From positions 46,968 to 110,967 of the forward strand of contig CAVOYW010000002.1 of NCBI GenBank assembly GCA_963700755.1: DNA of 64,000 nucleotides, read 5' to 3'. This document shows, in pieces, positions 34,484 to 60,767 of this stretch; position 1 is the first letter of the stretch; each line of letters starts with the position of its first letter. This DNA is from an uncultured Acidimicrobiales bacterium. Lineage in GTDB: Bacteria > Actinomycetota > Acidimicrobiia > Acidimicrobiales > SZUA-35. The notes beneath the pieces are model-generated. The model was not told where the DNA came from. It worked only from the letters and a program-made list of their open reading frames with translations, and searched no databases. Made by a program: the position numbers and the translations under genes.

Positions 34484-35281
34484 ATGGAACCCGTTCGTTA
34501 CGTCGACCTGTTGAACCAGCGCTACCGCCAGCAGGGATTCCCGCCCTACGAGTGGACGGTCAACGAACCGACCGGGCTCACCCCGCTCACCAAGCCGCTG
34601 GCCGAATGCCGGGTGTCGATGCTCACATCGGGCGGCGTCGCGCACTGCACGATGCCCACCTGGGACGCCACAGCCCGCAACGACTTCCGCCTCGACACCG
34701 TCGATCCGGCGGCGGCCGGCGCCGACTTCACGGTCAGCGACAGCTACTACGACACCGCCGACGCCGAGACCGACGTCAACACCGTGTTCCCGATCGACCG
34801 CCTCCGTGAACTCGAAGCCGACGGGACCATCGGTTCGGTGGCGCCCCGACTGTGGAGCGGTTTCATGGGACGGATCTACAAACGAACACACGTCACCGAC
34901 GTGGCGGCCCCGGCCCTGGCCGCCGAACTCCACGCCGACGAGGTCGACCTCGTCCTGCTGGTGCCCGCCTGACCTCTCGACCACCAGACAGTTGGTCTGG
35001 TCGCACGAGTGATCGAAGCCTCGGGTATCCCCACGGTGCTGGTCTCGACCGGCCGGGACCTCACCGAACTGGTCTGTCCACCCCGTTCGCTGTTCGTGAA
35101 CTTCCCGATGGGCAACCCGTTCGGCCCGCCGCACCAGCCCGACGTCCAGCGGGGAATCCTGCGCACGGCGCTCGAGCTGGCCGGCACCGACCTGGTCCCC
35201 GGCCAGATCGTCGACCTGCCCGATCAATGGCCCAGCGACTTCACCGACAAGGTGACCAAATCGCTCCTGGCCATGAGCTGA
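34484..35281 (+). CDS. GrdB/PrdB-family (glycine/sarcosine/betaine/D-proline reductase component B-like) protein with in-frame TGA at 34970-34972; candidate selenoprotein (265 codons)
   Basis: ORFs 34484..34972 and 35009..35281 share one frame. The junction reads LVLLVPA-TGA-PLDHQTVGLVARVIEASGIPTV. The N-terminal segment PLTKPLAECRVSMLTSGGV is typical of the family. Confidence 0.7.
34983..35001 (+). promoter_or_regulatory. Candidate bacterial SECIS stem-loop for the UGA at 34970
   Basis: The structure is A-CCAGAC / AGUUG / GUCUGG-U, a 7-bp stem. The loop G and U lie at +22 and +23 from the U of UGA. Confidence 0.5.
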
Positions 35282-36334: not shown

Positions 36335-37141
36335 TCAGCCGGGCCCGGGTCCGTCGCCGTCCCAGAGGATCGGGAAGAGCGGGTGGTCCATCTCGACCCC
36401 GGCGGCGAGTTCGGACTCGAGGCCGGGGAACGGGGGCGAGGTCGTCCAGGGTCGGGGTGCGTGGACCATGTCGTCGCCGAGCAGGCGGACCGACAGCACC
36501 CGGCGGCGGTTCGGGCCCGCCACCCCTCCGGCGCCGTGGACGGTCGCCATGTCGAAGAACACCGCGTCGCCCGGTTCGAGCGCCCATCCGATGACCGGCC
36601 ACCGTTCGGGATCGGCGGCGAAGTCGGGCAGCTCGGCCAGGCTGCCCTCGGGGAACCACTTCGCCTGATCGTCGAGGAAGGTGCGGGGCAGGTACCAGGG
36701 GCCACGGTGGCTGCCGGCGATGAATTCGAGCGTGGCCGACCGGTCGACCGGATCGACCGGGAACCACATGCTGGCGTTCTGGCGCCCGTCGACGTTGTAG
36801 TAGGGCTGGTCCTGGTGCCACGGCGTGCGCTGCCTCGTCCCGGGCTCCTTCACCAGCACGTGGTCGTGATAGAGCCGGATGCGACGCGACCCGGTGAGTT
36901 CGGCGGCGATCCGGGCCGCGGGTGAGTGACGGATGAACCGCTCCATCGACGGCAGACGCGTCCAGTTGCAGAAGTCCTCGATGAACGGGGCGTCGTCGTC
37001 GGCGCTGGCCCGCTTGGCCCGAGGTGACAGATCGGCCAGGTTGGCGTCGATGGCCGCGGCGGCCCACTCGACGTGCTCGGCGCTGAAGGCCTGCCGCACG
37101 CAGACCGCCCCGTCGCGTTCGTAGTCGCCTTCGACGATCAT
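36335..37141 (-). CDS. Phytanoyl-CoA dioxygenase (PhyH) family oxygenase
   Basis: The motifs are TPWHQDQPY (HxD), FIAGSH and VHGAGG. Confidence 0.85.
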   Translation of the reverse strand: MIVEGDYERDGAVCVRQAFSAEHVEWAAAAIDANLADLSPRAKRASADDDAPFIEDFCNWTRLPSMERFIRHSPAARIAAELTGSRRIRLYHDHVLVKEPGTRQRTPWHQDQPYYNVDGRQNASMWFPVDPVDRSATLEFIAGSHRGPWYLPRTFLDDQAKWFPEGSLAELPDFAADPERWPVIGWALEPGDAVFFDMATVHGAGGVAGPNRRRVLSVRLLGDDMVHAPRPWTTSPPFPGLESELAAGVEMDHPLFPILWDGDGPGPG

Positions 37142-37259
37142 GTTGGTCGCTCGTCGGCCGCCTTCAGCACCGGATCAGTCTGCCACGTCGGCGTTCCCGG
37201 GCACGGCCGAGTCGGGCCCGGTAGGGTCGGTTTCATCGGCGAGCGAGGGGAAGACGCAC

Positions 37260-37961
37260 GTGGCAGACATCGAGCTGATGGACCGGGGCTATGCCGCCGT
37301 CATGGCGCAGATCGTGAAGACCGGCGCGGCGCCGCACTTCACCGAGCTGGCGGCCGAGCTCGGCATTCCGATCACCGACGCCCGGGATCTCATCCACGAA
37401 CTGGTCGCGGTCACGCCGGGGTGGACCCACCCGGGCACCGACTACCTGGCGTCGTTCCCGCCGTTCAACCTCCAGCCGACCCACTATCGCGTTTCGATCG
37501 ACGGTGAGCAGCGCTGGTACGCCCAGTGTGGTTTCGAGGCCATGGCCGTTCGCTGGCTCGTCCCGGGTCGTGAGGTTCGGATCGACGCCCCGTGCCTGTG
37601 CTGCGGCGAACCGATCTCGGTGACGATGTGCGACGAGGAGCTGTCGCTGATCGAACCGGCCGAGACCGTCGGCTACACCGCCTCGCAGGTCGGGGGTGAT
37701 GCGGCCAGTCGGCCGTTCCGCTGAGCGAACATGAACCTCTTCCGGTCGGAAGAACACGCACGCCGCTGGTCCGGATTCGACGAGTCGATGGCCTCGAGCC
37801 TGATGCCCGTCGCCGAGTGGGCCGACATCTTCTCGAACCCCTTCTTCCGGGAACGGGGCCGCCCCGACTACCTCTCGTGGACCCGTTCCGACGAAGGCGC
37901 CGCCGCGTTCACCGAACTCCGGGCCCGCCTGCCTCAACCCAGCCACCCCGACTCGGCCTGA
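37260..37961 (+). CDS. Organomercurial lyase (MerB)-like protein with in-frame TGA at 37722-37724; candidate selenoprotein
   Basis: ORFs 37140..37724 and 37731..37961 share one frame. RWYAQCGFEAMAV aligns with MerB YAWCALDTLIF, and APCLCCGEPISVTM aligns with SSHCAATGAPVSLTV. PFR-TGA-ANMNLFRSEEHARRW aligns with SFCCHVHFFASVPTAEDW. The start is GTG at 37260, with ATG 37278 as an alternative. Confidence 0.6.
37738..37753 (+). promoter_or_regulatory. Candidate bacterial SECIS stem-loop for the UGA at 37722
   Basis: The structure is UCUUCC / GGUC / GGAAGA, a 6-bp stem with a GGUC tetraloop at +23 to +26 from the U of UGA. From memory, the E. coli fdhF SECIS has GGUC at +22 to +25. Confidence 0.6.
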
Positions 37962-37965
37962 TTCG

Positions 37966-38001
37966 GAGAGTCTGAGCGACGGAACCGTCGCTCAGCCTCT
38001 C
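37966..38001. terminator. Long imperfect hairpin between convergent genes, followed on the plus strand by a G-rich tract to about 38058
   Basis: The structure is GAGAG-T-CTGAGCGAC / GGAACC / GTCGCTCAG-C-CTCTC, with 5 + 9 bp, one mismatch and a 6-nt loop. It is near-identical to the hairpin at 53063..53100. Confidence 0.55.
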
Positions 38002-38058
38002 GAGAACCCCGGGGAGAACCGGGGGAGGGGCGGGCGTGGGTTGGGGTCGGACGGTCGG

Positions 38059-39012
38059 TCAGGCTCGGGGCGAGTGGTTGCGTTGGCGGAACTCGTGCAC
38101 GGACAGGGAACGAAGCGTGGTCGGCTCGCTGGCCCGGACGGTGGCGCTGCGGGGTTGGCCGAGCATCGGGGCCAACTCGCCGATGTATTCGCCGGGGCCT
38201 CGCTGGGTCAGGACCGTCTCGGTGCCGTCGATGGCTTCGCGTACCACGTCGAGGCGGCCCTGCTCGACCAGATAGACCCGACTCCCCGTCGATCCCTGGC
38301 GGAACAGGATGTCGCCCGACGCGAGCTCGACGCTCGTCTCGGTGGAGTCGTCGTCGAGCGATGGAACGAGATCGATGGAGGTGTCGGCGATGGGCATCAG
38401 CCGGTCGTCGTGGGTCGACACCACCACGGTGTGGCCGGCGGTTGCGATGTCGCGCAGCAGCGAGATGATGCCCTCGGCCTGGACGTAGTCGAGGTTGGCG
38501 GTCGGTTCGTCGGCCAGCAGGAGCGGGGCCCCGCTGGCCAGACCTCGGGCGATTGCCACCCGCTGTTGCTGCCCCCCGGAGAGGTGACTCGGCCGGTGAT
38601 GGGCTCGGTCGCCGAGGCCGACCTGGTCGAGCAGGTTGGCCGCTCGTTGGCGGGCGGCTCCGGCCGACGTTCCGGTGAGGCGGAGCGGCATGGCGATGTT
38701 GTCGAGCGCCGAGAGCGAGGGGATGAGGTTGAACGCCTGGAAGACGAAGCCCACCGAGTTGCGGCGGTGCGACAACAGGGAGCGGTCGTCGAGGCCGGCG
38801 ATGTCGGTGCCGTCGACCATGATCTGTCCGGCCGTCGGTCGGAGGATGCCTCCGAGGCACGACAGCAGCGTGGTCTTGCCGCACCCGGATGGGCCGAGCA
38901 ACAGCGCCAGATCGCCGTCGCCGATGGAGGCGTTCAACCCGTCCAGGGGGCGGATCGGATAGCCGTTCGAGGTGTATTCGACGACGAGATCGCGTATCTG
39001 CAGGTTCGGCAT
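38059..39012 (-). CDS. ABC transporter ATP-binding protein (MacB/LolD-type) with a C-terminal cyclic-nucleotide-binding domain
   Basis: Walker A is GPSGCGKTTL, the signature is LSGGQQQRVAIARGL, and Walker B is LLLADEPTANLD. The C-terminal segment GEYIGELAPMLGQPRSATVRA is a cNMP-binding phosphate-binding cassette. ATG at 39012 lies 1 nt after the upstream stop. Confidence 0.9.
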   Translation of the reverse strand: MPNLQIRDLVVEYTSNGYPIRPLDGLNASIGDGDLALLLGPSGCGKTTLLSCLGGILRPTAGQIMVDGTDIAGLDDRSLLSHRRNSVGFVFQAFNLIPSLSALDNIAMPLRLTGTSAGAARQRAANLLDQVGLGDRAHHRPSHLSGGQQQRVAIARGLASGAPLLLADEPTANLDYVQAEGIISLLRDIATAGHTVVVSTHDDRLMPIADTSIDLVPSLDDDSTETSVELASGDILFRQGSTGSRVYLVEQGRLDVVREAIDGTETVLTQRGPGEYIGELAPMLGQPRSATVRASEPTTLRSLSVHEFRQRNHSPRA

Positions 39013-39013
39013 G

Positions 39014-41965
39014 TCAGGCTCCCGGCCCACCGAAGGCTGCGGCAGGATCGGTTCGTAGCGTTCGTCTGATGGCGCCGTAGCTGGCGGCGGCGGCCACGAT
39101 CATCGACACCGCGACCAGGACGATCCGGTCGCCGAGGTCGAGGTAGACACGAAGCGGGAAGACCGGGGCGAGCAGGGTCTGGACGATCAGGGCGATGATC
39201 GATGCCACCAATCCGATGACCAGGGCCTGGGCGGCCACGCCGATCGAGATCGGGCGGGACGCAACGCCCATGGCTCGGAGGACGGCGATGTCGCGCAGTC
39301 GATCGAGCGTGGCCAGGAAGACGACGGCTCCGATGATGAGCGAGGCAACGACCGCGAGGAGGACCTGCACGAGCCGCATCGTGGCGATCGGTCGTTCGAT
39401 CGGTCCAAGGGCGTCCTCGGCCACCTCGGCCGGCTCGAGTGATCGCAGGGTGGGCGGAAGTTCGGGGAGCTGGTCGACCACCAGGGCCGAGAGCAATGGT
39501 TGACCCTCGACGACGAGGTCGCGAGCTGCGTCGAGCGGAACGAACACCAGGGGCATCCCGGCGAAGACGGTCGTTTCGGCGACGACGCCGGTGACGGTGG
39601 CGTCGAGCGGGCCGAGTCGAACCCGGTCACCGACGCCGAAGGTCGAGTCTTCGGACACCACGACCTCGGCGGCACCCTGGGCCTGGCGACCGTCGATCAA
39701 GGGGGGAGCGTCGTCGGGCAGGTCGGCGTGGCCGACGAGGATCACGTCGAGATCGTTTGCGCCCTCGGCATCGGCCAGGCGATAGCGAGCGATCAGGACC
39801 CGCCCGAGGGCGTCGGCGCCGACCGGACCGAGGTCGGCCAGTGCCGAGTCGGCGAACGTGGCGCTCGAGGTGAAGATGCCGTCGGCCCCGGCCGGGACGA
39901 TCCAGTGCGAGCCGCCGAAGGACGAAACGGCCACGGTCGGTTCCCGGTTGAGTTGGTTGACGACGCCGGTCATCAGGAGGAGGAGGGCGAGCACGACGCT
40001 GGTGGCGGCAACGGCGACGACGAATCGGCGGGCCCGGAGCCGGAGGTCGGCCCATGCGAGCGACAGCGATCCGATGAGGGCGGCACCGGGCGATCGGTCG
40101 GGGGCCGGGCCGGTGTCGGTCGGTCTCGGTCGTGATCGCCCGGCTTCGAGTGCGGCGATCAGTGTCGGGTCGCCAACCGGCGGTTCGGCGCCGGCGAGGA
40201 ACGCGTCGATCAGGGCGGCCGATTGGGTTGCGCCGAGGGCGATCACCTGGCGGACCTTGCCGAATTCCAGAACGCTGAACTCCGACAGGTTGAGGTGCAC
40301 ATGACAGTCCACCGACCCGAGCGCCTCGACCCGGCGGCTGGCCGAGGCCACGGTGGTCGAACGCATCAGGGTGTCGAGCGGGTTCGGCACCCGGTTGGAT
40401 CGCATGCCCGGGATCAGGCGCCGAGCCAGCAGTCGCGGCCCCGACATCACGCGGGGGAGCGGTTCGGTCTTGCGGCCGTGGGGCGGGGCGAGGTCGACCA
40501 CGATCATCGAGCCCTCCCCGGTGAGAGCCCGCGCCCCCTCGACGGGGATGGCGTCGAAGACGGCGCCATCGATGTGAACGTGACCGTCGATGTCGACCGG
40601 CGGGAACACACCGGGGATCGAGATACTGGCGTAGATCGCGTCGGCCATCGGCCCGGTGGTGTGATTCACCGATTCGCCGAGGGTGAGATCGGTGGTGGCA
40701 ATCGAGAGCGGGATCCAGGTGTCGGTGATGTCACGGTCGCCGCACGCCTGCTGAATGCGGCGCCAGGCTCGCCCACCGGCGATGACCGCCCCCACCGGGA
40801 GCGTGTAGTCGAGCAGTTTGCGCATCGACCAGTCGGTCTTCTCGTCGAGGCCGTCGACCGCTCCCAGTACTCCCAGCCAGGCGGCGACGATCGAGCCGCC
40901 GCTCACCCCGGCCACGGCATCGACGGCGATTCCCCGATCGGCGAGGGCCTGGATCGTGCCGACGGCTCCGGCCGATCGCACACCCCCGGCGCCGATGGCC
41001 ATCGTGAGTGGACGACCAACGGCATGGCGAGCGACGCGGTCGAGGTCGGACGGCGTCCGCCGCCGCAGGTGGAGATGCCGGTCGACCTGGCGGCGCACGA
41101 GCCACTCCCGCGTCAGGCGGGGCCGGTCGGCGTCGGCCGGATGTACCAGCACGAGCAGGCGGACCGCGTTCGCCGCTCGGGGCACCGATTCGAGCAGCTG
41201 CTGTTCGGCCTGGCCGATGTCGGGGCCGTCGGCGGTGTCGAGAACGAACACGAGCCGGTCGGCAACCTTGGCGATGGCCCGGTTCCACTCGGGCCGGGCC
41301 GGGTCGCCGAGCAGCGTCACGCCTCGACTCCCGGCCGTTTCGGTGTCTTCCCGTCGGTGTTCGAAGTCGTCGAGCCAGCCGAGGGTTCCGGCCGAGGCGG
41401 CCTGTTCGAGCTCGGGGTGATCGGTGGGATCGATCACGACGTGCTGCCCGATCGACGCCGCCGCGGCGGCCAGAGCGCGTGCCTCGCCCATCACGGTCGA
41501 GTCCAACGGAACGAAGGCCACGACCTCGGTCGGCCCGCCGAGGTCGTCGGCGCCTCGGGTCAGGACGGCGTGCATGATGGCCATGGCTACGTCGGGTTGT
41601 GCGGCCATGAGCGAGATCAGCCACTCCCGGTCGAGCACGGCCAGTTCGGTGCGGCGAGCGGCCCGCATTCGGGCCCGGCGCACCCCGACCTCGAGCAGGG
41701 CCGCTTCGCCGATCAGTTCGCCGGGCCCGTGGAGCCCGATTCGTTGTTCGACACCGTTGCCGTCGATCCGGCTGGCGTGGATCCGGCCCCGGACGACGAC
41801 CCAGGCCGAGTGGCCGGAGTCGCCCACTTCGCAGAGCAGTTCCCCGGCATCGAGCTCGTGGGTGGTCAAGGCCGAGAGGTCGGAATGCCGACCCGCGCCC
41901 GGCAGCGCCCGCTCGAGGGCATCACGCAACAGGGCATCGGGGTCGGCGTCGGGCATGCAGGTCAT
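39014..41965 (-). CDS. Fusion protein: cNMP-binding domain, patatin-like phospholipase (NTE-like) and MacB/FtsX-type ABC permease
   Basis: The N-terminal cNMP-binding segment is GELIGEAALL...RRARMRA. The patatin motifs are GAGGVRSAG (GxGxxG), GVSGGS (GxSxG) and IDGAVFD (the catalytic Asp). The C-terminus has one TM helix, a large loop and three TM helices, with an FtsX-type AVLRAMGVASRPI segment. Confidence 0.85.
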   Translation of the reverse strand: MTCMPDADPDALLRDALERALPGAGRHSDLSALTTHELDAGELLCEVGDSGHSAWVVVRGRIHASRIDGNGVEQRIGLHGPGELIGEAALLEVGVRRARMRAARRTELAVLDREWLISLMAAQPDVAMAIMHAVLTRGADDLGGPTEVVAFVPLDSTVMGEARALAAAAASIGQHVVIDPTDHPELEQAASAGTLGWLDDFEHRREDTETAGSRGVTLLGDPARPEWNRAIAKVADRLVFVLDTADGPDIGQAEQQLLESVPRAANAVRLLVLVHPADADRPRLTREWLVRRQVDRHLHLRRRTPSDLDRVARHAVGRPLTMAIGAGGVRSAGAVGTIQALADRGIAVDAVAGVSGGSIVAAWLGVLGAVDGLDEKTDWSMRKLLDYTLPVGAVIAGGRAWRRIQQACGDRDITDTWIPLSIATTDLTLGESVNHTTGPMADAIYASISIPGVFPPVDIDGHVHIDGAVFDAIPVEGARALTGEGSMIVVDLAPPHGRKTEPLPRVMSGPRLLARRLIPGMRSNRVPNPLDTLMRSTTVASASRRVEALGSVDCHVHLNLSEFSVLEFGKVRQVIALGATQSAALIDAFLAGAEPPVGDPTLIAALEAGRSRPRPTDTGPAPDRSPGAALIGSLSLAWADLRLRARRFVVAVAATSVVLALLLLMTGVVNQLNREPTVAVSSFGGSHWIVPAGADGIFTSSATFADSALADLGPVGADALGRVLIARYRLADAEGANDLDVILVGHADLPDDAPPLIDGRQAQGAAEVVVSEDSTFGVGDRVRLGPLDATVTGVVAETTVFAGMPLVFVPLDAARDLVVEGQPLLSALVVDQLPELPPTLRSLEPAEVAEDALGPIERPIATMRLVQVLLAVVASLIIGAVVFLATLDRLRDIAVLRAMGVASRPISIGVAAQALVIGLVASIIALIVQTLLAPVFPLRVYLDLGDRIVLVAVSMIVAAAASYGAIRRTLRTDPAAAFGGPGA

Positions 41966-42064
41966 GTCAATGTCCTGGTGAGCGTCATGTCAAGTCGTCG
42001 CAGAGCGCATGAGGTTCCTCGTCTCGCGGGCCCCTCTGTCGGTCCCGGTCTCACGGTAGGTGGC

Positions 42065-42085
42065 GCGCTGTCAGTGCGCTGTCAG
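42065..42085. promoter_or_regulatory. Direct repeat GCGCTGTCAG-T-GCGCTGTCAG with 11-bp phasing, in the divergent promoter region
   Basis: Read directly from the sequence. It lies 100 bp upstream of ATG 41965(-) and about 230 bp upstream of 42313(+). Confidence 0.35.
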
Positions 42086-42128
42086 ACCGGGAACGCGGGC
42101 CTTCGGCGGGGCCGCTCGGCGCCGGCGG

Positions 42129-42146
42129 CTGACAGCAGAGTGTCAG
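42129..42146. promoter_or_regulatory. Inverted repeat CTGACA-N6-TGTCAG
   Basis: Read directly from the sequence. It uses the same hexamer as the direct repeats at 42065-42085. Confidence 0.3.
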
Positions 42147-42312
42147 CGTCGTCCGTACCGTCTGCAGAACGGCGACAATCGGCGGTGACCCGATACGCCG
42201 GCCGACCCCGCCCGAGCAGCACGGACGCGTTGCAGACCGACTGCAGACGGCATTTCGTACGGTCGGACGAGAACGACGTGCAACACTGTTCGACAAGCCC
42301 TGGGGGGTGGCG

Positions 42313-45300
42313 ATGGAGGTCCGGGTTCTCGGCCCGCTGGAGGTGTCGATCGACGGCTCTTCAATCGCGGTCGGCGGGCCACGCCTGCGCCGTCTCCTGC
42401 TCTGCCTCGTCGGTGGTGACGGGTCGGTGCGGTCGATCGACACCCTGATCGACGCCGTGTGGCCCGAGGAGGAACCACCCGAGGGCGCTCGCCGCACGCT
42501 GATGTCGTACGTGTCGCGACTCCGGGGCGTGTTGGTCGACGGCGCGATCGAGCAGATGGGCGCCGGTTACCGGCTGCGCACCGAGCTGGTCTCGGTCGAT
42601 GCGAACCGCTTCGTCGAACTGGTCGACCGCGGTCGGCGGGCGGCCCGGTCGGGCAACGCCTCCGGCGCCGTGACGCTGTACGACGAGGGGCTGGCTCTCT
42701 GGCGGGGCGAACCCGCCGCCGAGTTCGCGGGCGAGCACTGGATCGAGCCGGAACGAGTGCGGCTCGACGAACTGAGGCTGGCCGCCCTCGAGGGCCGGTT
42801 CGAGGCCAAGCTCGCGCTCGATGCCCATGCCGAGGTCCTCGTCGACCTCGAGCAGGCCGACGCGGCTCACCCCGAGCGGGAACGACTGGCCTACCTGTAC
42901 ATGCTGGCGCTCTACCGCTGTGGGCGTCAGATCGAGGCACTCCGACACTTCCAGGCCGTCCGCACCCGATTGGCCGATCTCGGCCTGGAACCGGCCCCGG
43001 AGCTGCGCGACCTCGAACGACAGATCCTCGATCACGATGCGGTGCTCCTGAGCAGCGACCCGGAGCCCGGGACGTCGATCCGGGGCTACGAACTGGGCGA
43101 GCGCATCGGTGAAGGGTCGTTCGGCACGATCCATCGGGCGATCCAGCCATCGGTCGGACGTGAGGTGGCGATCAAGGTGATCCGGCCCGAATTCGCCAAC
43201 GACCCCGGTTCGTCCGCCGGTTCGAGACCGAGGCCCAGCTCGTCGCCCGCCTCGAACACCCGCACATCGTGCCGCTCTACGACTACTGGCGCGAGCCCGA
43301 CGGCGCCTACCTGGTGATGCGGCTGCTGCGCGGCGGCAACGCCGAGGAGAGACTGGTCGCCCGAGGTCCGCTGCCCCTGCCCGATGTCGTCACGATCATC
43401 GACCAGATCGGGGGTGCGCTGGCCGTCGCCCACGCTCGCGGGGTGATCCATCGAGACGTGAAGCCGGCCAACATCTTGTTCGACGACGACGACATCGCCT
43501 ATCTGGCCGACTTCGGGATCGCCGTGCGGGACGAACTCGACACCGCCGACGGGGAGCTGCATTCGGCGGGGTCGCCGCTCTACGCCAGCCCCGAACAGGT
43601 ACGGGGTGGCGAGATCACGGTCCGGTCCGACATCTACAGCCTCGGGATCGCCGCCTACGAGTTGCTGGCGGGGCGGACGGCGTTCTCGGCGGATTCGGTC
43701 CAGGCGCTGCTCGAGACGAAGCTTCGGGCCTCGGTTCCGAGTGTCCGCGTGGTTCGTCCCGATGTGCCGCCTGCGGTCGACGTGGTCATCGATCGGGCGA
43801 CTGCGGTCGATCCCGAGCGTCGGTTCCCCGACATGGGCGAGATGGTGTTGGCGTTCCGGGCGGCGGCCGCATCATCGGCCCAGGCGGTCATGACCGGGGA
43901 TCCGGGGCGAGCCCGGCTCGAGGAGCGACCGCGGGCGGCCGCCAGTCGCACGCTGGTGAACGTCGAGCTGGCCCGAGTCAATCCCTACAAGGGTCTGCGG
44001 GCGTTCCAGGAAGCCGACAGCCAGGACTTCCATGGGCGAGACGTGCTCATCGGCGAGCTGGTCGAGCGGGTCTCGGCCCATCGGCTCGTCGCCGTGGTCG
44101 GGGCCTCGGGCTCGGGCAAGTCGTCGGTCGTGCGGGCCGGCCTGCTCCCGGCGGTCGCCGATCGATCGTGGTTCGTGGTCACGATCCTGCCCGGCGCCCA
44201 CCCGTTGGAGGAGCTCGAAGCGGGCCTGCTCCGGGTGGCGTCCGACGAGGTGCCCGGGCTGTTGGAACAACTGCAGAGCGAGGACCGTGGCCTGATCCGG
44301 GCCGTGCGGCGGGTCCTGCCCCCCGACGACAGCGAACTGTTGCTGGTGATCGATCAGTTCGAGGAGGTCTTCACGGCGGCCGCGGCCGAGGAGCGGGATC
44401 GCTTCCTCGATGGCCTCGTCCAGGCCATCGACGACGACCGCTCGAGGATCCGGGTCGTCGCCACGATCCGGGCCGATTTCTACGACCGCCCGCTCCGTCA
44501 CCGTGGCTTCGGCGCCCTGTTGCAGGACGCCACCCTCAACGTGTTGCCGATGTCGGCCGAGGAGCTCACCGCGGCCATCGAGGCGCCGGCGACACGGCTC
44601 GGGTCCCGGTTCGAGCCGGGACTGGTCGACATGATCGTCGCCGATGTCGGTGAGAACGCCGGGATGTTGCCGTTGCTGCAATACGCGCTGACCGAGCTCT
44701 ACGACCGTCGGATCGGCGACGAGATGACGCTGGCCGGTTACCGCGACATCGGCGGCGTCACCGGTGCCTTGGCCCGCCGGGCCGAGGAGCTGTTTTCGGA
44801 TCTCCACGAGCACGATCAGGCCGGCGCCCGGAGACTGTTCACCCGTCTGGTCACCCCGGGTGAGGGTGTCGAGGACACCCGCCGCCGAGCCCTTCGTTCC
44901 GAACTGACCGTCGTGTCCGACGAGATCATCGATTCGTTCGGTGCCCACCGGCTGCTGTCGTTCGACCGTGATCCGGCCACCCGGGCACCGACGGTCGAGG
45001 TGGCGCACGAGGCGTTGATCCGGGAGTGGGGCCGGTTGCGTCACTGGGTCGACGAGGACCGTCAGGGCCTCCGTACGTTGCGACATCTCACGGCGTCGAC
45101 GAAAGGCTGGATCGACGCCGATCGTGACCCGGCCGAGCTCTATCGCGGCGGCCGTCTCGACGCGGCCGCGGAGTGGGCTGACCAGCATCGCAACGACCTG
45201 GCCCCCGACGAGGTCGAGTTCCTCGAGGCCAGCCGGTCGTTGCGTGAGGTCGAACTGCGGGAGCAGGCCGAGCGGGCGGCGCTCCGCGAGCGGCAGAACC

Positions 45301-48266: not shown

Positions 48267-49849
48267 TGACCGGCGTGGCCGCACCCCCGCTCGACGCTCG
48301 ACCGCAGTTGCGGCTCGGTCGGTCGTCGTATCCGGTGGTGTTGCCGCGCCTGACCGACACCCGGCTCCACGTGGCGTCGGTCATCGTGTCGCTCCACGTC
48401 CTGGGCCAGCTCGTGCTGGGATTCCGGGTCTCGGTACCCCAGATCCTGGCCGCGATCTTGAGCTGCGCCCTGGCCGAGATGATCATCGCGTTCCGTCGGG
48501 AGCGAAGCATCGTGTGGCCGGCCAGCGCCATGCTGACCGGCAGCGGTGTCGGTCTGATCCTGCGTGACGCGTCGACCGAGGCCGGCGAGCACTGGACGTT
48601 TCGCCATTGGTGGCTGTTCGCCGGGATCGCCCTGTTCTCGCTGGCCACCAAGTACGCCATTCGCTGGCGCGGGTCCCACGTCTTCAACCCGTCGAACCTC
48701 GGCCTGGTCGTCGCCTTCATCGTCCTGGGGAGCGACCGGATCGAACCCCTCGACTTCTGGTGGGGACCGTTCAGCGTCTGGATGTTGCTGGCCTACTGGC
48801 TGATCGTTTCCGGCGGTGTTCTCGTGACCGAACGCCTCGGCCTGCTCGAGCTGGCCGGCGCCTTCTGGACCACGTTTGCACTCTGCATGGCAGCACTGTC
48901 GGCGTCGGGGCACTGCATCACGGCTCCGTGGTCGGCCTCGGCGGTGTGCGGCGGCCGATTCTGGTGGACCATCGTGACGTCACCCGAGCTCCTGGTCTTC
49001 GTGTTCTTCATGATCACCGACCCGCGCACCGTGCCGTCGAGTCGGGTCGGACGTGTCGCCTTCGGCATCGGCGTCGCCGTGGTCAGTTCGCTCCTGATCG
49101 CACCGCAGACCACCGAGTTCGGGGCCAAGGTGGGTCTCCTCGGAGGGCTGGTCGTGATGTGCGCCATCCCCCCGGTCATGCAGGTACTCGGCGTGCCGTC
49201 GGCCTGGGAACGGTCACGGCTGCGCACCGCCGGCGACCGGCACCTCATCGTCCGATCGTTCGCCGGAGTTGTCGTGCTCGGTCTCGTCCTGCCCGCCGTC
49301 GCCGCGGCCGGGGCCCCGGCCCGGTCGGCCGTCTCGGCCGCGGTGATCGAACCGCGGCCCGATCCCCGTGAGTACGTCTTCGATGTCGACGAAGCCCGCC
49401 TCGGCGTCATCACCGTCGATCCCGAGGTCGAGGTCCTCGACCCCGACCTGGTCGGACCCGGATCCCGGCTCGCTGCCATCGAACTGCTCCGCGGCCTCGA
49501 TGTCGAAGTCCTCGCCTTCGAACGTGGCGACGCCACCGTGTTGAGTGCCGTCGACCACGGCGGTCGACTCGTCGAGATGCGAGATCGATTGGCCCGGTAC
49601 CAGCCGGGTGACACGATCCCGAGCGACCACCGTTTCGACACCATGGAGCTCTCCGTCGTTCGGAGCCGAGGGCAGGGTGGGCTCCGGCTCGCCATCACCG
49701 GACGGGGTAGCATCGAGGAACGGGTTCTCGACGAGAGCGGTGGCATCCTCGCTCGGCATCGGGCCGGGTTCTCCGCCCAATTCGTCCTGAGGGCGGGCGA
49801 CGATGGACGATGGTTCATCGTCGAAGAACGCGCACAGGAAGATGGATGA
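48263..49849 (+). CDS. Polytopic membrane protein (RnfD/NqrB-like or UnbU-like core) with a soluble C-terminal domain
   Basis: The start overlaps the upstream stop (GTGATG). There are about 8 TM helices, with HVFNPSNLGL and FFMITDPRTVP motifs that resemble the RnfD/NqrB family (from memory). The C-terminal 170 aa are soluble. Confidence 0.8.
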   Translation: MMTGVAAPPLDARPQLRLGRSSYPVVLPRLTDTRLHVASVIVSLHVLGQLVLGFRVSVPQILAAILSCALAEMIIAFRRERSIVWPASAMLTGSGVGLILRDASTEAGEHWTFRHWWLFAGIALFSLATKYAIRWRGSHVFNPSNLGLVVAFIVLGSDRIEPLDFWWGPFSVWMLLAYWLIVSGGVLVTERLGLLELAGAFWTTFALCMAALSASGHCITAPWSASAVCGGRFWWTIVTSPELLVFVFFMITDPRTVPSSRVGRVAFGIGVAVVSSLLIAPQTTEFGAKVGLLGGLVVMCAIPPVMQVLGVPSAWERSRLRTAGDRHLIVRSFAGVVVLGLVLPAVAAAGAPARSAVSAAVIEPRPDPREYVFDVDEARLGVITVDPEVEVLDPDLVGPGSRLAAIELLRGLDVEVLAFERGDATVLSAVDHGGRLVEMRDRLARYQPGDTIPSDHRFDTMELSVVRSRGQGGLRLAITGRGSIEERVLDESGGILARHRAGFSAQFVLRAGDDGRWFIVEERAQEDG

Positions 49850-49853
49850 TCCG

Positions 49854-50906
49854 ATGAAGGAGGGTGGCGCCGTGGAATCCAGGACGAACGACGAACTCGT
49901 CGATGGGCGTGGCTCGCCCCGGCCTCGGCAACCAGCACCGACTACGCCGGCGCCGATGCCGATCGCCCGGCCGGCCGTCGTGGTTCGTTCGCCCGGCCGG
50001 ACACCGCTCCATCTCATGGTGACCGAACCGATCGAGATCGGACGCGAATGCGCCGGACTCCTCCTGGATGACCCGTTGATCTCTCGTCGCCACCTCGAGG
50101 TCCGCGCCGACGGAGACCGGGTCGTCGTGACCGATCTCGGGAGCACCAACGGCACCACGATCAGCGGCCGTCCGCTGACGGGGTCCAGTGTGATCGGGGT
50201 GGCCGACACCGTGAACTTCGGCGATTCGACCATCCACCTCGTCGTCGACGTCAAGGCCACCATGGCACCGGGACTGGTGAAGCCATCGTCGTCGGTGCCG
50301 GTGGACCTGCGGCGGACCTCGATCGACATCGTGGCCGAGGCCTACTCCGTCGATCGGCCCGCCGTCGACGAGGTGCCGGTCTCGCACGGAACGACCACCA
50401 TCGTGTTCAGCGACATCGAATCGTCGACAGCACGAGCCGAGGAGCTCGGGGACCAACGCTGGTTCGAGCTGCTGTCCACCCACAACGACGTGGTGCGTCG
50501 CCGGGTCGAATCCTTCCACGGCAAGGAGATCAAGGCCCAGGGCGACGGGTTCATGTTGTCGTTCCCGTCGGCCCGCGGTGCCGTGCAGTGCATGCTCGCC
50601 GTGCAACAGGACCTCGACGAACACAACCGTCGTCACCCCGATCGCCCCATCCGGGTCCGGGTCGGGATCCACACCGGCGAGGCCATCGTCGACGGCGACG
50701 GTGACCTGTTCGGAAAGCACGTGATCCTGGCGGCCCGGATCGCCAACGAGGCCGTCGGCGGTGAGATCCTCGTGTCGTCGCTGGTGCGCCAGATCATCGA
50801 AGCCCACGGCGACATGGAATTCGGTGAGGGCCGGGTCACTCAGCTGAAGGGGCTCGCCGGGACCTACACCGTGTTCCCGATCCTCCGCCGCTCGACCGAA
50901 AGCTGA
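49854..50906 (+). CDS. FHA domain-containing class III adenylate/guanylate cyclase
   Basis: The FHA segment is IEIGRECAGLLLDDPLISRRHLEV...VTDLGSTNGTTISG. The cyclase segment is TIVFSDIESSTARAE...KAQGDGFMLSF...VRVGIHTGEAI...FGKHVILAARI. The start is ambiguous: ATG at 49803, 49842 or 49854. Confidence 0.85.
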   Translation: MKEGGAVESRTNDELVDGRGSPRPRQPAPTTPAPMPIARPAVVVRSPGRTPLHLMVTEPIEIGRECAGLLLDDPLISRRHLEVRADGDRVVVTDLGSTNGTTISGRPLTGSSVIGVADTVNFGDSTIHLVVDVKATMAPGLVKPSSSVPVDLRRTSIDIVAEAYSVDRPAVDEVPVSHGTTTIVFSDIESSTARAEELGDQRWFELLSTHNDVVRRRVESFHGKEIKAQGDGFMLSFPSARGAVQCMLAVQQDLDEHNRRHPDRPIRVRVGIHTGEAIVDGDGDLFGKHVILAARIANEAVGGEILVSSLVRQIIEAHGDMEFGEGRVTQLKGLAGTYTVFPILRRSTES

Positions 50907-60089: not shown

Positions 60090-60767
60090 TCAGATGGGAA
60101 CGTCGCCGCCGGCGATGTCTTCGAGGAGCCCGGTGTCGACGATGGTGATCCGTCCTCGGCCCGTCGCGATCGCCCCGGCCCGTCGCAACAGCGCCAGCGA
60201 CCGTGCGGCCGCCTCACGGGTGGCGCCCACCCATGCCGCGACCTCGTCCTGGGTGACGGGCACCTCGATCGATGTCCCGTTCCCATGCCGTTCGAACTTG
60301 GTGCCCAACTCGACGAGGAGATTGGCCACCCGTTGGTTGGAGGTCTCGGCCGATCGGGCGGAGAGCCGTATGTTGGCCCGCATGAGGTGCGAGACCAGTT
60401 CCCGCAGGACGACGAGGGCCAGATCCGACTCGCCGTCGAGCGCATCGAGGAAGGCCGGGCCGGGGAGGCAGTGGACCACGGTCGGTTCCATCGCCTGCGC
60501 AGTCGCGGATCGCACCGATCGGGAGATGGCCGAGAGTTCACCGAATCCCTCGACCGGGGTCTTCGTGCCCAGGATGACCTCTCGGCCGTTCGGCGAGGTG
60601 ACGAACAGGTTGATGCGGCCCTTCGTGCAGGCATAGACGGTCGACGACCGTTCGCCCTGCAAGAAGAGCGTCTCGCCGGCGTCGAGATGCTGCGGTTCAC
60701 CGCGGTGGGTGACGAACGCACCCAGCGCCATTCGGTGCTCGGCACCGGGCGGTGGCGGGCGATTCAC
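60090..60767 (-). CDS. Crp/Fnr-family transcriptional regulator
   Basis: It has a cNMP-binding fold (GFGELSAISRSVRSATAQA) and a C-terminal HTH (TQDEVAAWVGATREAAARSLALLRRAG). ATG 60731 is an alternative start. Confidence 0.85.
   Translation of the reverse strand: MNRPPPPGAEHRMALGAFVTHRGEPQHLDAGETLFLQGERSSTVYACTKGRINLFVTSPNGREVILGTKTPVEGFGELSAISRSVRSATAQAMEPTVVHCLPGPAFLDALDGESDLALVVLRELVSHLMRANIRLSARSAETSNQRVANLLVELGTKFERHGNGTSIEVPVTQDEVAAWVGATREAAARSLALLRRAGAIATGRGRITIVDTGLLEDIAGGDVPI

What the first reader, a model, noticed from the sequence alone, without database searches (positions are those of the whole stretch)
38059..41965. Rosetta-stone fusion: a cNMP-gated patatin lipase fused to a MacB/FtsX permease, partnered by an ABC ATPase with its own cNMP domain
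The 983-aa product of 39014..41965 strings together three parts:
- A cyclic-nucleotide-binding domain.
- An NTE-like patatin phospholipase with GxGxxG, GVSGGS and DGA motifs.
- A complete FtsX/MacB-type permease: one TM helix, a large extracytoplasmic loop and three TM helices.

The next gene, 38059..39012, has its start 1 nt after the upstream stop. It is a MacB/LolD-type ATPase carrying a second cNMP-binding domain at its C-terminus. From memory, Mycobacterium tuberculosis has the same three modules as separate neighbouring genes: Rv2563 (permease), Rv2564 (ATPase with a cNMP domain) and Rv2565 (cNMP plus patatin). All three are functionally uncharacterised.

The covalent fusion here argues that the lipase and the transporter act as one machine. 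This could be cAMP-controlled hydrolysis coupled to extrusion or flipping of a lipid product. I know of no experimental description of such a system.
Basis: partly seen in the sequence, partly recalled or inferred. Interest (0 to 1): 0.72.

Follow-up and report, generated by a model that had tools for sequence, protein, structure and literature searches.

The report
Lipase fused to ABC transporter permease
A soil-type actinobacterium (order Acidimicrobiales) encodes a membrane transporter subunit with a complete cyclic-nucleotide-sensing lipase fused to its cytoplasmic end; the fusion is real, rare and has arisen more than once, which argues that related genes that lie separate but adjacent in other actinobacteria, reportedly including the tuberculosis bacterium, work together as one lipid-handling machine.

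Summary
39014..41965(-) encodes a 983-aa protein: cNMP-binding domain, NTE P-loop-like domain, patatin lipase with an intact Ser355/Asp466 dyad, a linker, then a complete four-helix type VII ABC permease whose closest solved relative is the heme extractor HrtB. One nucleotide downstream, 38059..39012(-) encodes a MacB/LolD-type ATPase with intact catalytic motifs and a canonical C-terminal cNMP domain.

The fusion is not an artefact. It is one uninterrupted ORF in at least eight other Acidimicrobiales assemblies, including the complete genome of the isolate Actinospongicola halichondriae Hal317, and an ATPase-cNMP gene always follows it. Relatives carry the same modules as a patatin→permease→ATPase operon with overlapping stop/start codons. 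Some fused genes keep the old permease start codon as an internal relic. A bootstrap tree indicates at least two independent fusions. The fused form is rare: about 6-7 clusters among 1.84 billion representative proteins.

One regulated lipase-transporter complex is therefore well supported. cAMP gating and product extrusion remain inference.

[quoted passage not shown] MFS-cNMP-patatin fusions are an independent parallel.

Verdict: a new variant of a known kind, of moderate to high interest.

The parts
39014..41965 (-). Fusion gene, 983 aa: cNMP-binding domain, NTE P-loop-like domain, patatin lipase, linker, type VII ABC permease
   Evidence: ORF and translation. Pfam domains. Full-length homologues at 39-89% identity. 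GC3 0.85, typical of coding sequence in this window.
41603..41857 (-). N-terminal cyclic-nucleotide-binding domain (aa 37-121). The phosphate-binding cassette is G86-E87...R96-x-A98.
   Evidence: PF00027, E 1.7e-14. G86, E87, R96 and A98 are invariant in 14 fused homologues. Foldseek matches CRP/GlxR cAMP-binding domains.
41054..41299 (-). NTE-family P-loop-like domain (Pfam match aa 223-304; the alpha/beta fold spans about aa 147-315 in the model)
   Evidence: PF24179, 28.5 bits against a cut-off of 27. Also precomputed for the homologues. The AF2 secondary structure is alternating strand and helix.
40532..40999 (-). Patatin catalytic core (aa 323-478). Oxyanion motif G327-G328-x-R330, nucleophile Ser355 in GVSGG, Asp466 in DGA.
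   Evidence: PF01734, E 4.3e-21. All catalytic residues are invariant in alignment A1. Motif positions. The closest solved structure by sequence is PlpD, 5fqu, E 2.6e-16.
40058..40165 (-). Variable Pro/Arg-rich linker (aa about 601-636) joining the lipase to the permease; the former gene boundary
   Evidence: Poorly conserved and variable in length in A1. pLDDT below 50 at residues 611-625. Corresponds to the overlapping stop/start junction of split operons and to relic Met/Val codons in other fused genes.
39026..40057 (-). Complete type VII (HrtB/MacB-fold) ABC permease (aa 637-980): TM1 at 648-666, extracytoplasmic domain at about 667-867, TM2-4 at 868-966
   Evidence: Matches HrtB chain 7w78_B over its whole length, E 1.8e-12. 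Foldseek TM-score normalised to the target is 0.75-0.77 for HrtB, followed by MacB, LolCDE and YbbAP. PF02687 is above its cut-off. Hydropathy and charge bias.
38059..39012 (-). Partner ABC ATPase, 317 aa. The start codon lies one base after the fusion gene's stop codon.
   Evidence: An orthologous gene directly follows every fused gene examined.
38368..39012 (-). Nucleotide-binding domain (aa 1-215) of the MacB/LolD/FtsE type with intact Walker A, Q-loop, signature, Walker B-Glu and H-loop motifs
   Evidence: PF00005, E 6.8e-34. NCBIfam FtsE, LolD, DevA and MacB are the top matches. The MacB-fold-type ATPases of MacB, LolD, YtrE, FtsE and YbbA are among the closest PDB matches; the two best are Rv1281c (OppD) chains. 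Motif conservation in 120 homologues.
38083..38331 (-). C-terminal cyclic-nucleotide-binding domain of the ATPase (aa 228-310) with the canonical cassette GEL...PRSATV
   Evidence: PF00027, E 1.3e-19. In 120 homologues the cassette residues G, E, R and A are 100% conserved and S and T are 89% conserved.

Best explanation
**What it is.** This is a self-contained two-gene cassette for a cyclic-nucleotide-regulated type VII ABC transporter. An NTE-type patatin (lyso)phospholipase is built into the cytoplasmic N-terminus of its permease.

**Inferred assembly.** By analogy with HrtBA and MacB, the complex would be (fusion)2(ATPase)2. It would then carry two membrane-tethered lipase modules and four cNMP-binding domains, all on the cytoplasmic face. 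Two extracytoplasmic domains of about 200 aa would face the cell wall.

**Origin (shown).** The cassette arose from a three-gene operon, patatin then permease then ATPase, by loss of an overlapping stop/start junction. This happened at least twice.

**Proposed working (inferred).**
1. A rise in cAMP, or another cNMP, is read by both polypeptides at once.
2. The lipase module is released to deacylate glycerophospholipid or lysophospholipid at the inner leaflet, as NTE does on the ER membrane.
3. The ATPase is licensed at the same time. Its cycle squeezes the HrtB-like helix bundle to pull an amphiphilic product, either free fatty acid or lysolipid that has reached the outer leaflet, out of the bilayer and expel it.

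The overall effect would be signal-controlled membrane-lipid turnover or detoxification by one machine.
For: **Shown by computation.**
- Domain architecture and intact catalytic, ATPase and cNMP-cassette residues.
- N-in topology with no transmembrane segment or signal peptide before residue 648.
- An HrtB-like fold for the permease.
- The fused ORF is uninterrupted in L001-L007, L016, L099 (Actinospongicola halichondriae Hal317, complete chromosome) and L100. An ATPase-cNMP gene always lies directly downstream, while other neighbours are not conserved.
- Fifteen split-collinear operons have overlapping GTGA or TGATG junctions between patatin and permease, the mark of translational coupling.
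- L014 has the three genes as neighbours with the patatin gene convergent.
- Relic start codons lie inside the fused genes L016, P0186 and P0187.
- Bootstrap support: the one-cNMP fused clade 100%; the two-cNMP fused trio grouped with split L018 93%; all fused forms monophyletic 0%.
- The same lipase family is independently fused to MFS transporters.
- A class III nucleotide cyclase and a CRP-family regulator lie in the same window, so the organism has cNMP signalling.

**From the literature.**
- HrtBA extracts a hydrophobic ligand from the outer leaflet and expels it on ATP binding (PMC9271180).
Against: - No biochemical data exist for any member of this family.
- Type VII transporters have no transmembrane cavity and pick substrates from the outer leaflet, whereas the lipase is on the cytoplasmic side. 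A product hand-over therefore needs spontaneous or assisted flip-flop.
- Most relatives of this permease/ATPase-cNMP pair have no patatin gene nearby: 22 of 33 informative metagenome loci, plus L008 and L015. The transporter thus has a function of its own that does not need the lipase.
- Some close cNMP-patatin homologues have no FtsX neighbour (L012, L013).
- The lipase's cNMP cassette lacks the usual Ser/Thr after the Arg. In eukaryotic NTE, nucleotide binding by these domains is debated (my own knowledge).
- The AF2 model is only moderately confident (mean pLDDT 71.7, and low over residues 385-530 of the patatin domain). It says nothing reliable about how the domains pack.
Confidence: 0.5

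Rival explanations
1. Regulatory coupling without product transport. The ABC module works purely by mechanotransmission or flux sensing, as in FtsEX or BceAB-BceS. Its ATP-driven conformational cycle, or its load of an unrelated membrane substrate, switches the tethered lipase on or off allosterically, or the lipase state modulates the transporter. No lipase product passes through or along the permease.
For: Type VII transporters characteristically transmit conformational changes to partner proteins rather than moving substrates across the bilayer (PMC12646458; PMC9271180). The lipase joins the permease at the cytoplasmic N-terminus of TM1, where MacB carries its fused nucleotide-binding domain (established knowledge; topology). 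The permease/ATPase-cNMP pair exists widely without any lipase.
Against: All known mechanotransmission partners are extracytoplasmic or intramembrane, not cytoplasmic. Independent fusion of the same lipase family to MFS transporters, which have no mechanotransmission mechanism, points to a shared substrate logic rather than a shared allosteric one.
Confidence: 0.2
2. The ABC part is an HrtBA-like exporter of heme or another hydrophobic toxin. The lipase is a co-regulated membrane-repair enzyme that became fused only because the genes overlapped.
For: HrtB is the only PDB sequence matched by the permease part (E 5.5e-13) and the best structural match. An invariant Glu857 lies at the outer end of TM2, two residues from the position aligned to the heme ligand Glu219 of HrtB.
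Against: HMMER aligns HrtB Glu219 to Pro859, not to a Glu, and identity is only about 20%. No heme-responsive regulator such as HssRS, ChrSA or HrtR lies near the cassette. HrtA has no cNMP domain (my own knowledge). Recurrent fusion and translational coupling argue for physical cooperation rather than accident.
Confidence: 0.12
3. An anti-phage or abortive-infection effector. A cyclic-nucleotide alarm signal activates a membrane-destroying patatin lipase, as with CBASS CapV or Pycsar effectors, and the permease serves as a membrane anchor.
For: Patatin lipases and cNMP-binding effectors occur in defence systems. PADLOC gives domain-level matches to Pycsar families. A STAND NTPase gene is the neighbour in five related genomes.
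Against: PADLOC matches cover only the cNMP or ATPase domains, and no CapV-type or whole-protein match appears. No CD-NTase or Pycsar cyclase is adjacent; the nearest cyclase is an FHA-class III enzyme 8 kb away. The cassette sits in unrelated housekeeping contexts in distant relatives. A dedicated, catalytically intact ATPase is always retained. The split form is reported as a core chromosomal locus in mycobacteria.
Confidence: 0.05
4. The fusion is an assembly or sequencing artefact: a lost stop codon or an indel joined two genes.
For: The window shows apparent frameshifts in the neighbouring SARP-kinase-STAND gene. Related long-read MAGs have frameshifts elsewhere (L001, L011).
Against: At least ten independent assemblies from different projects carry a single uninterrupted ORF at 39-89% identity, including a complete genome of a cultured isolate. 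The linker is 30-40 aa long and coding-like, which a single-base slip would not produce.
Confidence: 0.01

Closest known systems
YbbAP-TesA of Escherichia coli, a type VII ABC transporter-lipid hydrolase complex (PMC12646458, 2025)
   Same: A MacB-fold ABC transporter is physically combined with an esterase or lysophospholipase. The proposed role is handling lipids or other hydrophobic molecules of the cytoplasmic membrane. The genes are neighbours. YbbP and YbbA appear among the structural and sequence matches.
   Different: TesA is an SGNH hydrolase, secreted to the periplasm and bound non-covalently to YbbP's periplasmic domains. YbbP has 10 TM helices and two periplasmic domains, and there is no cNMP domain. 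Here the hydrolase is a patatin/NTE-type enzyme, cytoplasmic and covalently fused to the N-terminus of a 4-TM permease, and both polypeptides carry cNMP-binding domains.
HrtBA heme extractor of Corynebacterium diphtheriae (PDB 7W78-7W7D; PMC9271180)
   Same: It is the best sequence and structure match to the permease part over its full length. Both have 4 TM helices plus an extracytoplasmic domain of about 200 aa, a separate ATPase, and a Gram-positive host.
   Different: Identity is only about 20%. The heme ligand Glu219 aligns to Pro859, although an invariant Glu lies two residues away. HrtB has no cytoplasmic enzyme domain, HrtA has no cNMP domain, and no heme-regulatory genes are nearby.
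Mycobacterium tuberculosis Rv2563-Rv2564-Rv2565 (and Rv0072/Rv0073)
   Same: Rv2563/Rv2564 are described as a type VII (MacB-like) permease plus an ATPase with an extra regulatory domain. Rv2564 and Rv2565 both carry PF00027. Rv2565 is listed as an esterase. This is the same set of modules as here, in split form, and their function is uncertain.
   Different: They are three separate genes in the order permease, ATPase, lipase. Here there are two genes in the order lipase-permease fusion, ATPase. I could not fetch the M. tuberculosis locus with these tools, so orthology to this clade is untested.
MFS-cNMP-patatin fusion proteins (P0046-P0060; from memory, the class of M. tuberculosis Rv3239c and Rv3728)
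   Same: The same cNMP-binding NTE-type patatin module is covalently fused to a membrane transporter.
   Different: The transporter is a major-facilitator protein placed N-terminal to the lipase. It has no ATPase partner and is driven by proton-motive force, not ATP.
Neuropathy target esterase (PNPLA6, Swiss-cheese, yeast Nte1)
   Same: The order cNMP-binding domain(s), NTE P-loop-like domain, patatin domain is the same, and the enzyme is tethered to a membrane with its catalytic side facing the cytosol (PF24179 is named after this family).
   Different: NTE is anchored by a single N-terminal TM helix and has no transporter part. Here the anchor is a C-terminal four-helix ABC permease.

Membership tests
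Type VII (MacB/FtsX-fold) ABC transporter permease | Four TM helices with a large extracytoplasmic domain inserted between TM1 and TM2, and both termini cytoplasmic | tested here: met
   Hydropathy peaks at 648-666, 868-886, 910-928 and 948-966. The loop between TM1 and TM2 is about 200 aa. Arg/Lys bias marks the predicted cytoplasmic segments. The AF2 secondary structure agrees.
Type VII (MacB/FtsX-fold) ABC transporter permease | FtsX C-terminal domain (PF02687) and MacB-like periplasmic core domain (PF12704) | tested here: met
   PF02687 scores 35.2 bits against a cut-off of 25.5. PF12704 scores 24.2 bits, just under its cut-off of 27, but the fold matches HrtB, MacB and LolCDE with Foldseek probability 1.00.
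Type VII (MacB/FtsX-fold) ABC transporter permease | Partner nucleotide-binding domain of the MacB/LolD/FtsE subfamily, encoded adjacently or fused | tested here: met
   The adjacent gene's best NCBIfam matches are FtsE, LolD, DevA and MacB. The MacB-fold-type ATPases of MacB, LolD, YtrE, FtsE and YbbA are among the closest PDB matches; the two best matches are Rv1281c (OppD) chains. All catalytic motifs are intact.
Type VII (MacB/FtsX-fold) ABC transporter permease | Mechanotransmission or outer-leaflet extraction instead of transbilayer transport | not testable with these tools
   Needs structures in different nucleotide states or transport assays.
HrtBA heme exporter | Glutamate heme ligand at the outer end of TM2 (Glu219 in C. 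diphtheriae HrtB) | tested here: inconclusive
   HMMER aligns Glu219 to Pro859. An invariant Glu857-Arg858 lies two residues upstream and could be equivalent if the alignment shifts.
HrtBA heme exporter | Heme-responsive regulatory context (HssRS, ChrSA or HrtR) | tested here: not met
   None appears among the neighbours in the window or in L099, L100, L011, L014 or L016.
Patatin-like phospholipase, NTE subfamily | Ser-Asp catalytic dyad in GxSxG and DG[AG], and a GGxR oxyanion hole | tested here: met
   G327-G328-V-R330, G353-V-S355-G-G357 and D466-G467-A are invariant in 14 homologues.
Patatin-like phospholipase, NTE subfamily | N-terminal cNMP-binding domain(s) followed by the NTE P-loop-like domain | tested here: met
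   PF00027 is followed by PF24179, both above their cut-offs. Relatives have one or two cNMP domains.
Patatin-like phospholipase, NTE subfamily | (Lyso)phospholipase activity | not testable with these tools
   Needs an enzyme assay with a Ser355Ala control.
Ligand-competent cyclic-nucleotide-binding domain (PF00027) | Phosphate-binding cassette with the Gly-Glu pair and the Arg-[Ser/Thr/Ala]-Ala motif | tested here: met
   The ATPase has GEL...PRSATV, with G, E, R and A conserved in 100% of 120 homologues. The lipase has GE...R-x-A invariant, but the residue after Arg is Arg, Gly, Ala or Gln rather than Ser or Thr. Actual binding and nucleotide specificity are untested.
YbbAP-TesA-type ABC-hydrolase complex | A periplasmic SGNH hydrolase docked on the periplasmic domains of a 10-TM YbbP | tested here: not met
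   The hydrolase here is a cytoplasmic patatin fused N-terminally, and the permease has 4 TM helices. It resembles YbbAP-TesA in concept only.
Cyclic-nucleotide anti-phage systems (CBASS CapV, Pycsar) | An adjacent CD-NTase or Pycsar cyclase, and an effector matching the defence-system models over its whole length | tested here: not met
   PADLOC matches are confined to the cNMP and ATPase domains. No cyclase is adjacent.

The most novel reading that the evidence does not exclude
This would be the first type VII ABC transporter whose enzymatic partner is cytoplasmic and covalently attached. In that reading it is a second-messenger-gated, ATP-driven machine that couples deacylation of inner-leaflet phospholipid to extraction of the lipid product from the bilayer. 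Its split form, which reportedly includes M. tuberculosis Rv2563-Rv2565, would then be a previously unrecognised output arm of actinobacterial cAMP signalling that controls membrane-lipid turnover.
Probability: 0.3. Interest if true: 0.8.

Novelty: new variant of a known kind. Interest (0 to 1): 0.6.

Why it matters
- **A functional link for uncharacterised genes.** Domain fusions are among the most reliable computational signs that separate proteins work together. This one is conserved, recurrent and backed by translationally coupled split operons. It ties an NTE-type lipase to a type VII ABC transporter and to cyclic-nucleotide signalling. That gives a concrete, testable hypothesis for genes that have stayed uncharacterised since the M. 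tuberculosis genome was annotated (Rv2563-Rv2565, and by extension the MFS-lipase fusions).
- **A new layout for type VII ABC transporters.** The 2025 YbbAP-TesA work showed that a type VII ABC transporter can be paired with a lipid hydrolase. This cassette places the hydrolase on the opposite side of the membrane and under second-messenger control.
- **Experimental access.** The cassette is present in a cultured isolate with a complete genome, Actinospongicola halichondriae Hal317. The fused form should make a stoichiometric complex easier to purify for cryo-EM.

Tried and rejected
- **Artefact hypothesis.** Rejected, because uninterrupted orthologous ORFs occur in at least ten independent assemblies.
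- **Defence-system membership.** PADLOC gave only domain-level matches.
- **Promoter and terminator scan of 37600-42400.** No promoter-like site, and only three weak terminator-like hairpins, two of them inside genes.
- **Literature.**
  - No paper in the held library combines patatin with FtsX in one protein.
  - Searches for descriptions of the mycobacterial cNMP-binding proteins found little.
  - The McCue 2000 and Bai 2011 papers are not held.
  - PMC2447327 did not mention the genes.
- **Cluster look-up of representative proteins.** It gave few organism names, only Egibacteraceae and Nitriliruptoraceae for the nearest split lipases.
- **Metagenome scan.**
  - It used the peptide pattern RD[FV]A[VI][LM][KR]A[VML]G, which excludes the window's own RDIAVLRAMG.
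  - Its count of zero fused loci is therefore a biased sample and not a census.
- **Correction of an earlier reading.** L009 and L010 first looked fused from tblastn. Stop-to-stop ORF analysis showed them to be split-collinear.
- **Bootstrap tree.** The first attempt timed out and was redone with numpy.

Full report
**1. The observation**

39014..41965(-) is a 983-codon ATG-initiated ORF, and 38059..39012(-) follows it. The junction reads TGA, one base, ATG, with a GGAG about 8 nt upstream of the ATG. Both ORFs have the GC3 (about 0.85-0.88) of real genes in this 69% G+C window.

Pfam finds these domains in the long protein:
- cNMP_binding, residues 37-121.
- NTE_Ploop, residues 223-304.
- Patatin, residues 323-478.
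- MacB_PCD, residues 650-817, marginally under its cut-off.
- FtsX, residues 868-974.

In the short protein Pfam finds ABC_tran (23-172) and cNMP_binding (228-310). The ATPase is of the FtsE/LolD/DevA/MacB kind.

Hydropathy gives four strong helices at 648-666, 868-886, 910-928 and 948-966, with a loop of about 200 aa after the first. Nothing membrane-spanning lies before residue 648, and there is no signal peptide. Arg/Lys-rich stretches sit before TM1, in the TM2-TM3 loop and at the C-terminus. The cNMP-P-loop-patatin part is therefore cytoplasmic.

**2. The fusion is genuine**

A word-indexed search of 5.8 billion protein clusters returned fifteen full-length or nearly full-length fused relatives at 39-89% identity. 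One is the annotated 967-aa protein of the cultured Actinospongicola halichondriae.

In an alignment of 14 of them the reading frame runs through a variable Pro/Arg-rich linker. Every catalytic residue is invariant, and so are the cNMP cassette residues G86, E87, R96 and A98.

A scan of one genome per species (185,579 species) found ten loci, nine from Acidimicrobiales and one (L008) from an unclassified Actinomycetota MAG. Stop-to-stop ORF analysis shows seven of them (L001-L007) with all four modules in one ORF. Further intact fused genes are L016 (1,108 aa, two cNMP domains), L099 (Hal317 complete chromosome) and L100. L011 is fused but carries a frameshift.

The concern about indels is legitimate, because the neighbouring giant gene in this window is broken into three frames. 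It does not apply to the fusion.

**3. The cassette and its relatives**

In every fused locus the next gene, 0-30 nt downstream, is the ATPase with a C-terminal cNMP domain. Nothing else is conserved between distant relatives, so this is a two-gene cassette.

The ATPase-cNMP family is very large. 7,999 of the 8,000 scored candidates reach E ≤ 1e-20, and the top 120 all have the same two-domain architecture. In those 120:
- The Walker A, Q-loop, signature, Walker B-Glu and H-loop motifs are conserved.
- The cNMP cassette is canonical: G, E, R and A at 100%, S and T at 89%.

Following these ATPases and the nearest stand-alone permeases into their contigs gave three further states:
- **Split-collinear operons.** The order is patatin, permease, ATPase (L009, L010, L017, L018 and eleven metagenome loci).
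- **Split with the lipase convergent.** This is L014: FtsX 348 aa, ABC-cNMP 367 aa, cNMP-NTE_Ploop-patatin 610 aa.
- **Permease plus ATPase-cNMP with no lipase nearby.** These are L008, L015 and 22 metagenome loci with at least 2.5 kb of upstream sequence.

**4. How the fusion arose**

In the split-collinear operons the lipase stop and the permease start overlap. The junction reads ...GCGTGATCCTG... (GTGA) or ...CTGATGTTG... (TGATG), the usual mark of translationally coupled subunits.

Fused genes of the two-cNMP type still contain the old initiator, preceded by 25-35 read-through residues:
- L016 reads ...FGMILLTFRDLQHR.
- P0186 reads ...RGMLTLTAADIRYR.
- P0187 reads ...HGVLLLTLRDLQYR.

I built a neighbour-joining tree of 41 permease domains over 343 columns with 200 bootstraps. 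The results are:
- The one-cNMP fused clade, which contains the window, has 100% support.
- The fused trio P0187/L016/L011 groups with the split L018 at 93%.
- All fused forms are never monophyletic (0%).

At least two fusions, or a fusion followed by a fission, therefore occurred. This is a distance tree with an uncertain root, so the exact number of events is provisional.

**5. How common it is**

An exhaustive HMMER search of 1.84 billion representatives clustered at 50% identity gave 1,555 relatives at E ≤ 1e-30. Only six or seven of the listed representatives are full-length fusions: P0009, P0183, P0012, P0184, P0186, P0187 and perhaps P0210. The rest are mostly two-cNMP-patatin proteins of about 740 aa or stand-alone permeases of about 350 aa.

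The fused form is thus rare and, as far as organism names are available, confined to Acidimicrobiales.

**6. What the parts resemble**

- **Permease.** Its only PDB sequence match is HrtB of Corynebacterium diphtheriae, over the whole chain (E 5.5e-13). The AlphaFold model has mean pLDDT 71.7; the permease part is good and part of the patatin domain is poor. Its best Foldseek matches are HrtB (TM-score 0.75-0.77 normalised to the target), then MacB, LolCDE, Spr0694-0695, YbbAP, YtrEF and BceAB.
- **HrtBA mechanism.** HrtBA takes heme laterally from the outer leaflet and squeezes it out when the ATPase dimerises. It has no transmembrane cavity (PMC9271180). The heme ligand Glu219 aligns to Pro859 here, although an invariant Glu857 lies two residues away. 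I therefore do not file the cassette as a heme exporter.
- **Defence systems.** PADLOC models match only at the level of single domains.

**7. Literature**

- **YbbAP-TesA.** McAndrew et al. 2025 (PMC12646458) describe YbbAP-TesA as a type VII ABC transporter-lipid hydrolase complex. There, however, the hydrolase is periplasmic, of the SGNH type, non-covalently bound and not regulated by cNMP.
- **M. tuberculosis.** PMC7761784 describes Rv2563/Rv2564 as MacB-like, type VII, non-essential and of uncertain function. PMC4886424 lists PF00027 in both Rv2564 and Rv2565. PMC10865251 lists Rv2565 and Rv3728 among the esterases.
- **The fusion itself.** No paper in the held library describes a patatin-FtsX fusion.
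- **MFS parallel.** Proteins P0046-P0060 are MFS-cNMP-patatin fusions, with the transporter N-terminal. This is an independent joining of the same lipase family to an unrelated transporter class.

**8. Mechanism**

*Shown by computation:*
- The architecture, the intact active sites and the N-in topology.
- The HrtB-like fold of the permease.
- The obligate ATPase partner.
- Recurrent fusion, and translational coupling in the split forms.

*Inferred:*
- A (fusion)2(ATPase)2 complex with four cytoplasmic cNMP sensors.
- One second messenger switching on both a lipase at the inner leaflet and an ATP-driven extractor.
- A lipase product, or a related amphiphile, as the extractor's substrate.

The window itself encodes an FHA-class III nucleotide cyclase (49803..50906) and a CRP-family regulator (60090..60767), so cNMP signalling is present in this organism.

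The main difficulties are two. First, the sidedness is wrong for a direct hand-over: the lipase is inside, whereas type VII transporters take substrate from the outer leaflet. Second, most relatives of the transporter work without any lipase. I therefore give about 0.5 to the coupled lipid-processing model as a whole. The "one physical complex" part rates far higher, about 0.85, and the "product extrusion" step lower.

The rivals are pure allosteric or mechanotransmission coupling (0.2), an HrtBA-like toxin exporter with a co-regulated repair lipase (0.12), a defence effector (0.05) and an artefact (0.01).

**9. Verdict**

It is a new variant of known kinds: type VII ABC transporters with hydrolase partners, and NTE-type lipases fused to transporters. 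It is not a categorically new system. Its value lies in giving a firm, testable functional link for an uncharacterised cAMP-related gene set in actinobacteria, reportedly including M. tuberculosis, and in offering a natural single-chain version suited to structural work.

Noticed in passing
window 42304-47565 (+): A giant gene for a SARP/BTAD DNA-binding domain, a Ser/Thr kinase, an nSTAND1 NTPase and WD40 repeats is one 1,824-aa ORF in L002 (2387..7858). In the window it lies in three frames: 42304-43206, 43191-45926 and 46381-47565. That means two frameshifts, so it is either a pseudogene or carries long-read indel errors. L001 is broken at a different place.
   Followed up: partly
window 42307-46181 versus L001-L004: The SARP-kinase-STAND gene is the immediate neighbour of the cassette in five related genomes, although its orientation differs. 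It is divergent in the window and L001, and co-directional and upstream in L002-L004. It is absent in more distant relatives. It could be a dedicated transcriptional activator of the cassette; this was not tested.
   Followed up: partly
window 49803-50906 (+) and 60090-60767 (-): An FHA-domain class III adenylate/guanylate cyclase lies about 8 kb from the cassette, and a CRP-family cNMP-binding transcription factor about 18 kb away. The window therefore holds a source and another reader of the same second messenger.
   Followed up: no
proteins P0046-P0060 (not in the window): Proteins of about 1,060-1,137 aa have an N-terminal MFS transporter, a cNMP-binding domain and a C-terminal patatin domain. 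This is an independent fusion of the same lipase family to a different transporter superfamily.
   Followed up: partly
L016 7017-8333 (-), L012 7785-9140 (-), L014 1-4910: Lipid-related neighbours occur around some relatives. A PF04185 phosphoesterase (phospholipase C family) lies next to the fused cassette L016. An MMPL transporter and a YceI protein lie next to a stand-alone cNMP-patatin gene. Steroid and fatty-acid beta-oxidation genes lie next to the split locus L014. Such genes are common in actinobacterial genomes, so enrichment is unproven.
   Followed up: no
window 37140-37724 (+): A 194-aa ORF with a partial alkylmercury lyase (MerB) domain starts 2 nt inside the end of the convergently oriented PhyH gene (36335..37141). 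Its orthologue in L001 shows an apparent frameshift.
   Followed up: no
window 34484-34972 (+): A 162-aa ORF matches only the C-terminal half (profile positions 188-345 of 347) of glycine/sarcosine/betaine reductase selenoprotein B. I did not check whether an upstream part exists across an in-frame UGA.
   Followed up: no
L003 12016-13794 (+), L075 8053-10200 (-), L096 3490-4641 (-): Additional proteins with two cNMP-binding domains lie within a few kb of several permease/ATPase-cNMP pairs. This suggests local clustering of cNMP-responsive genes.
   Followed up: no
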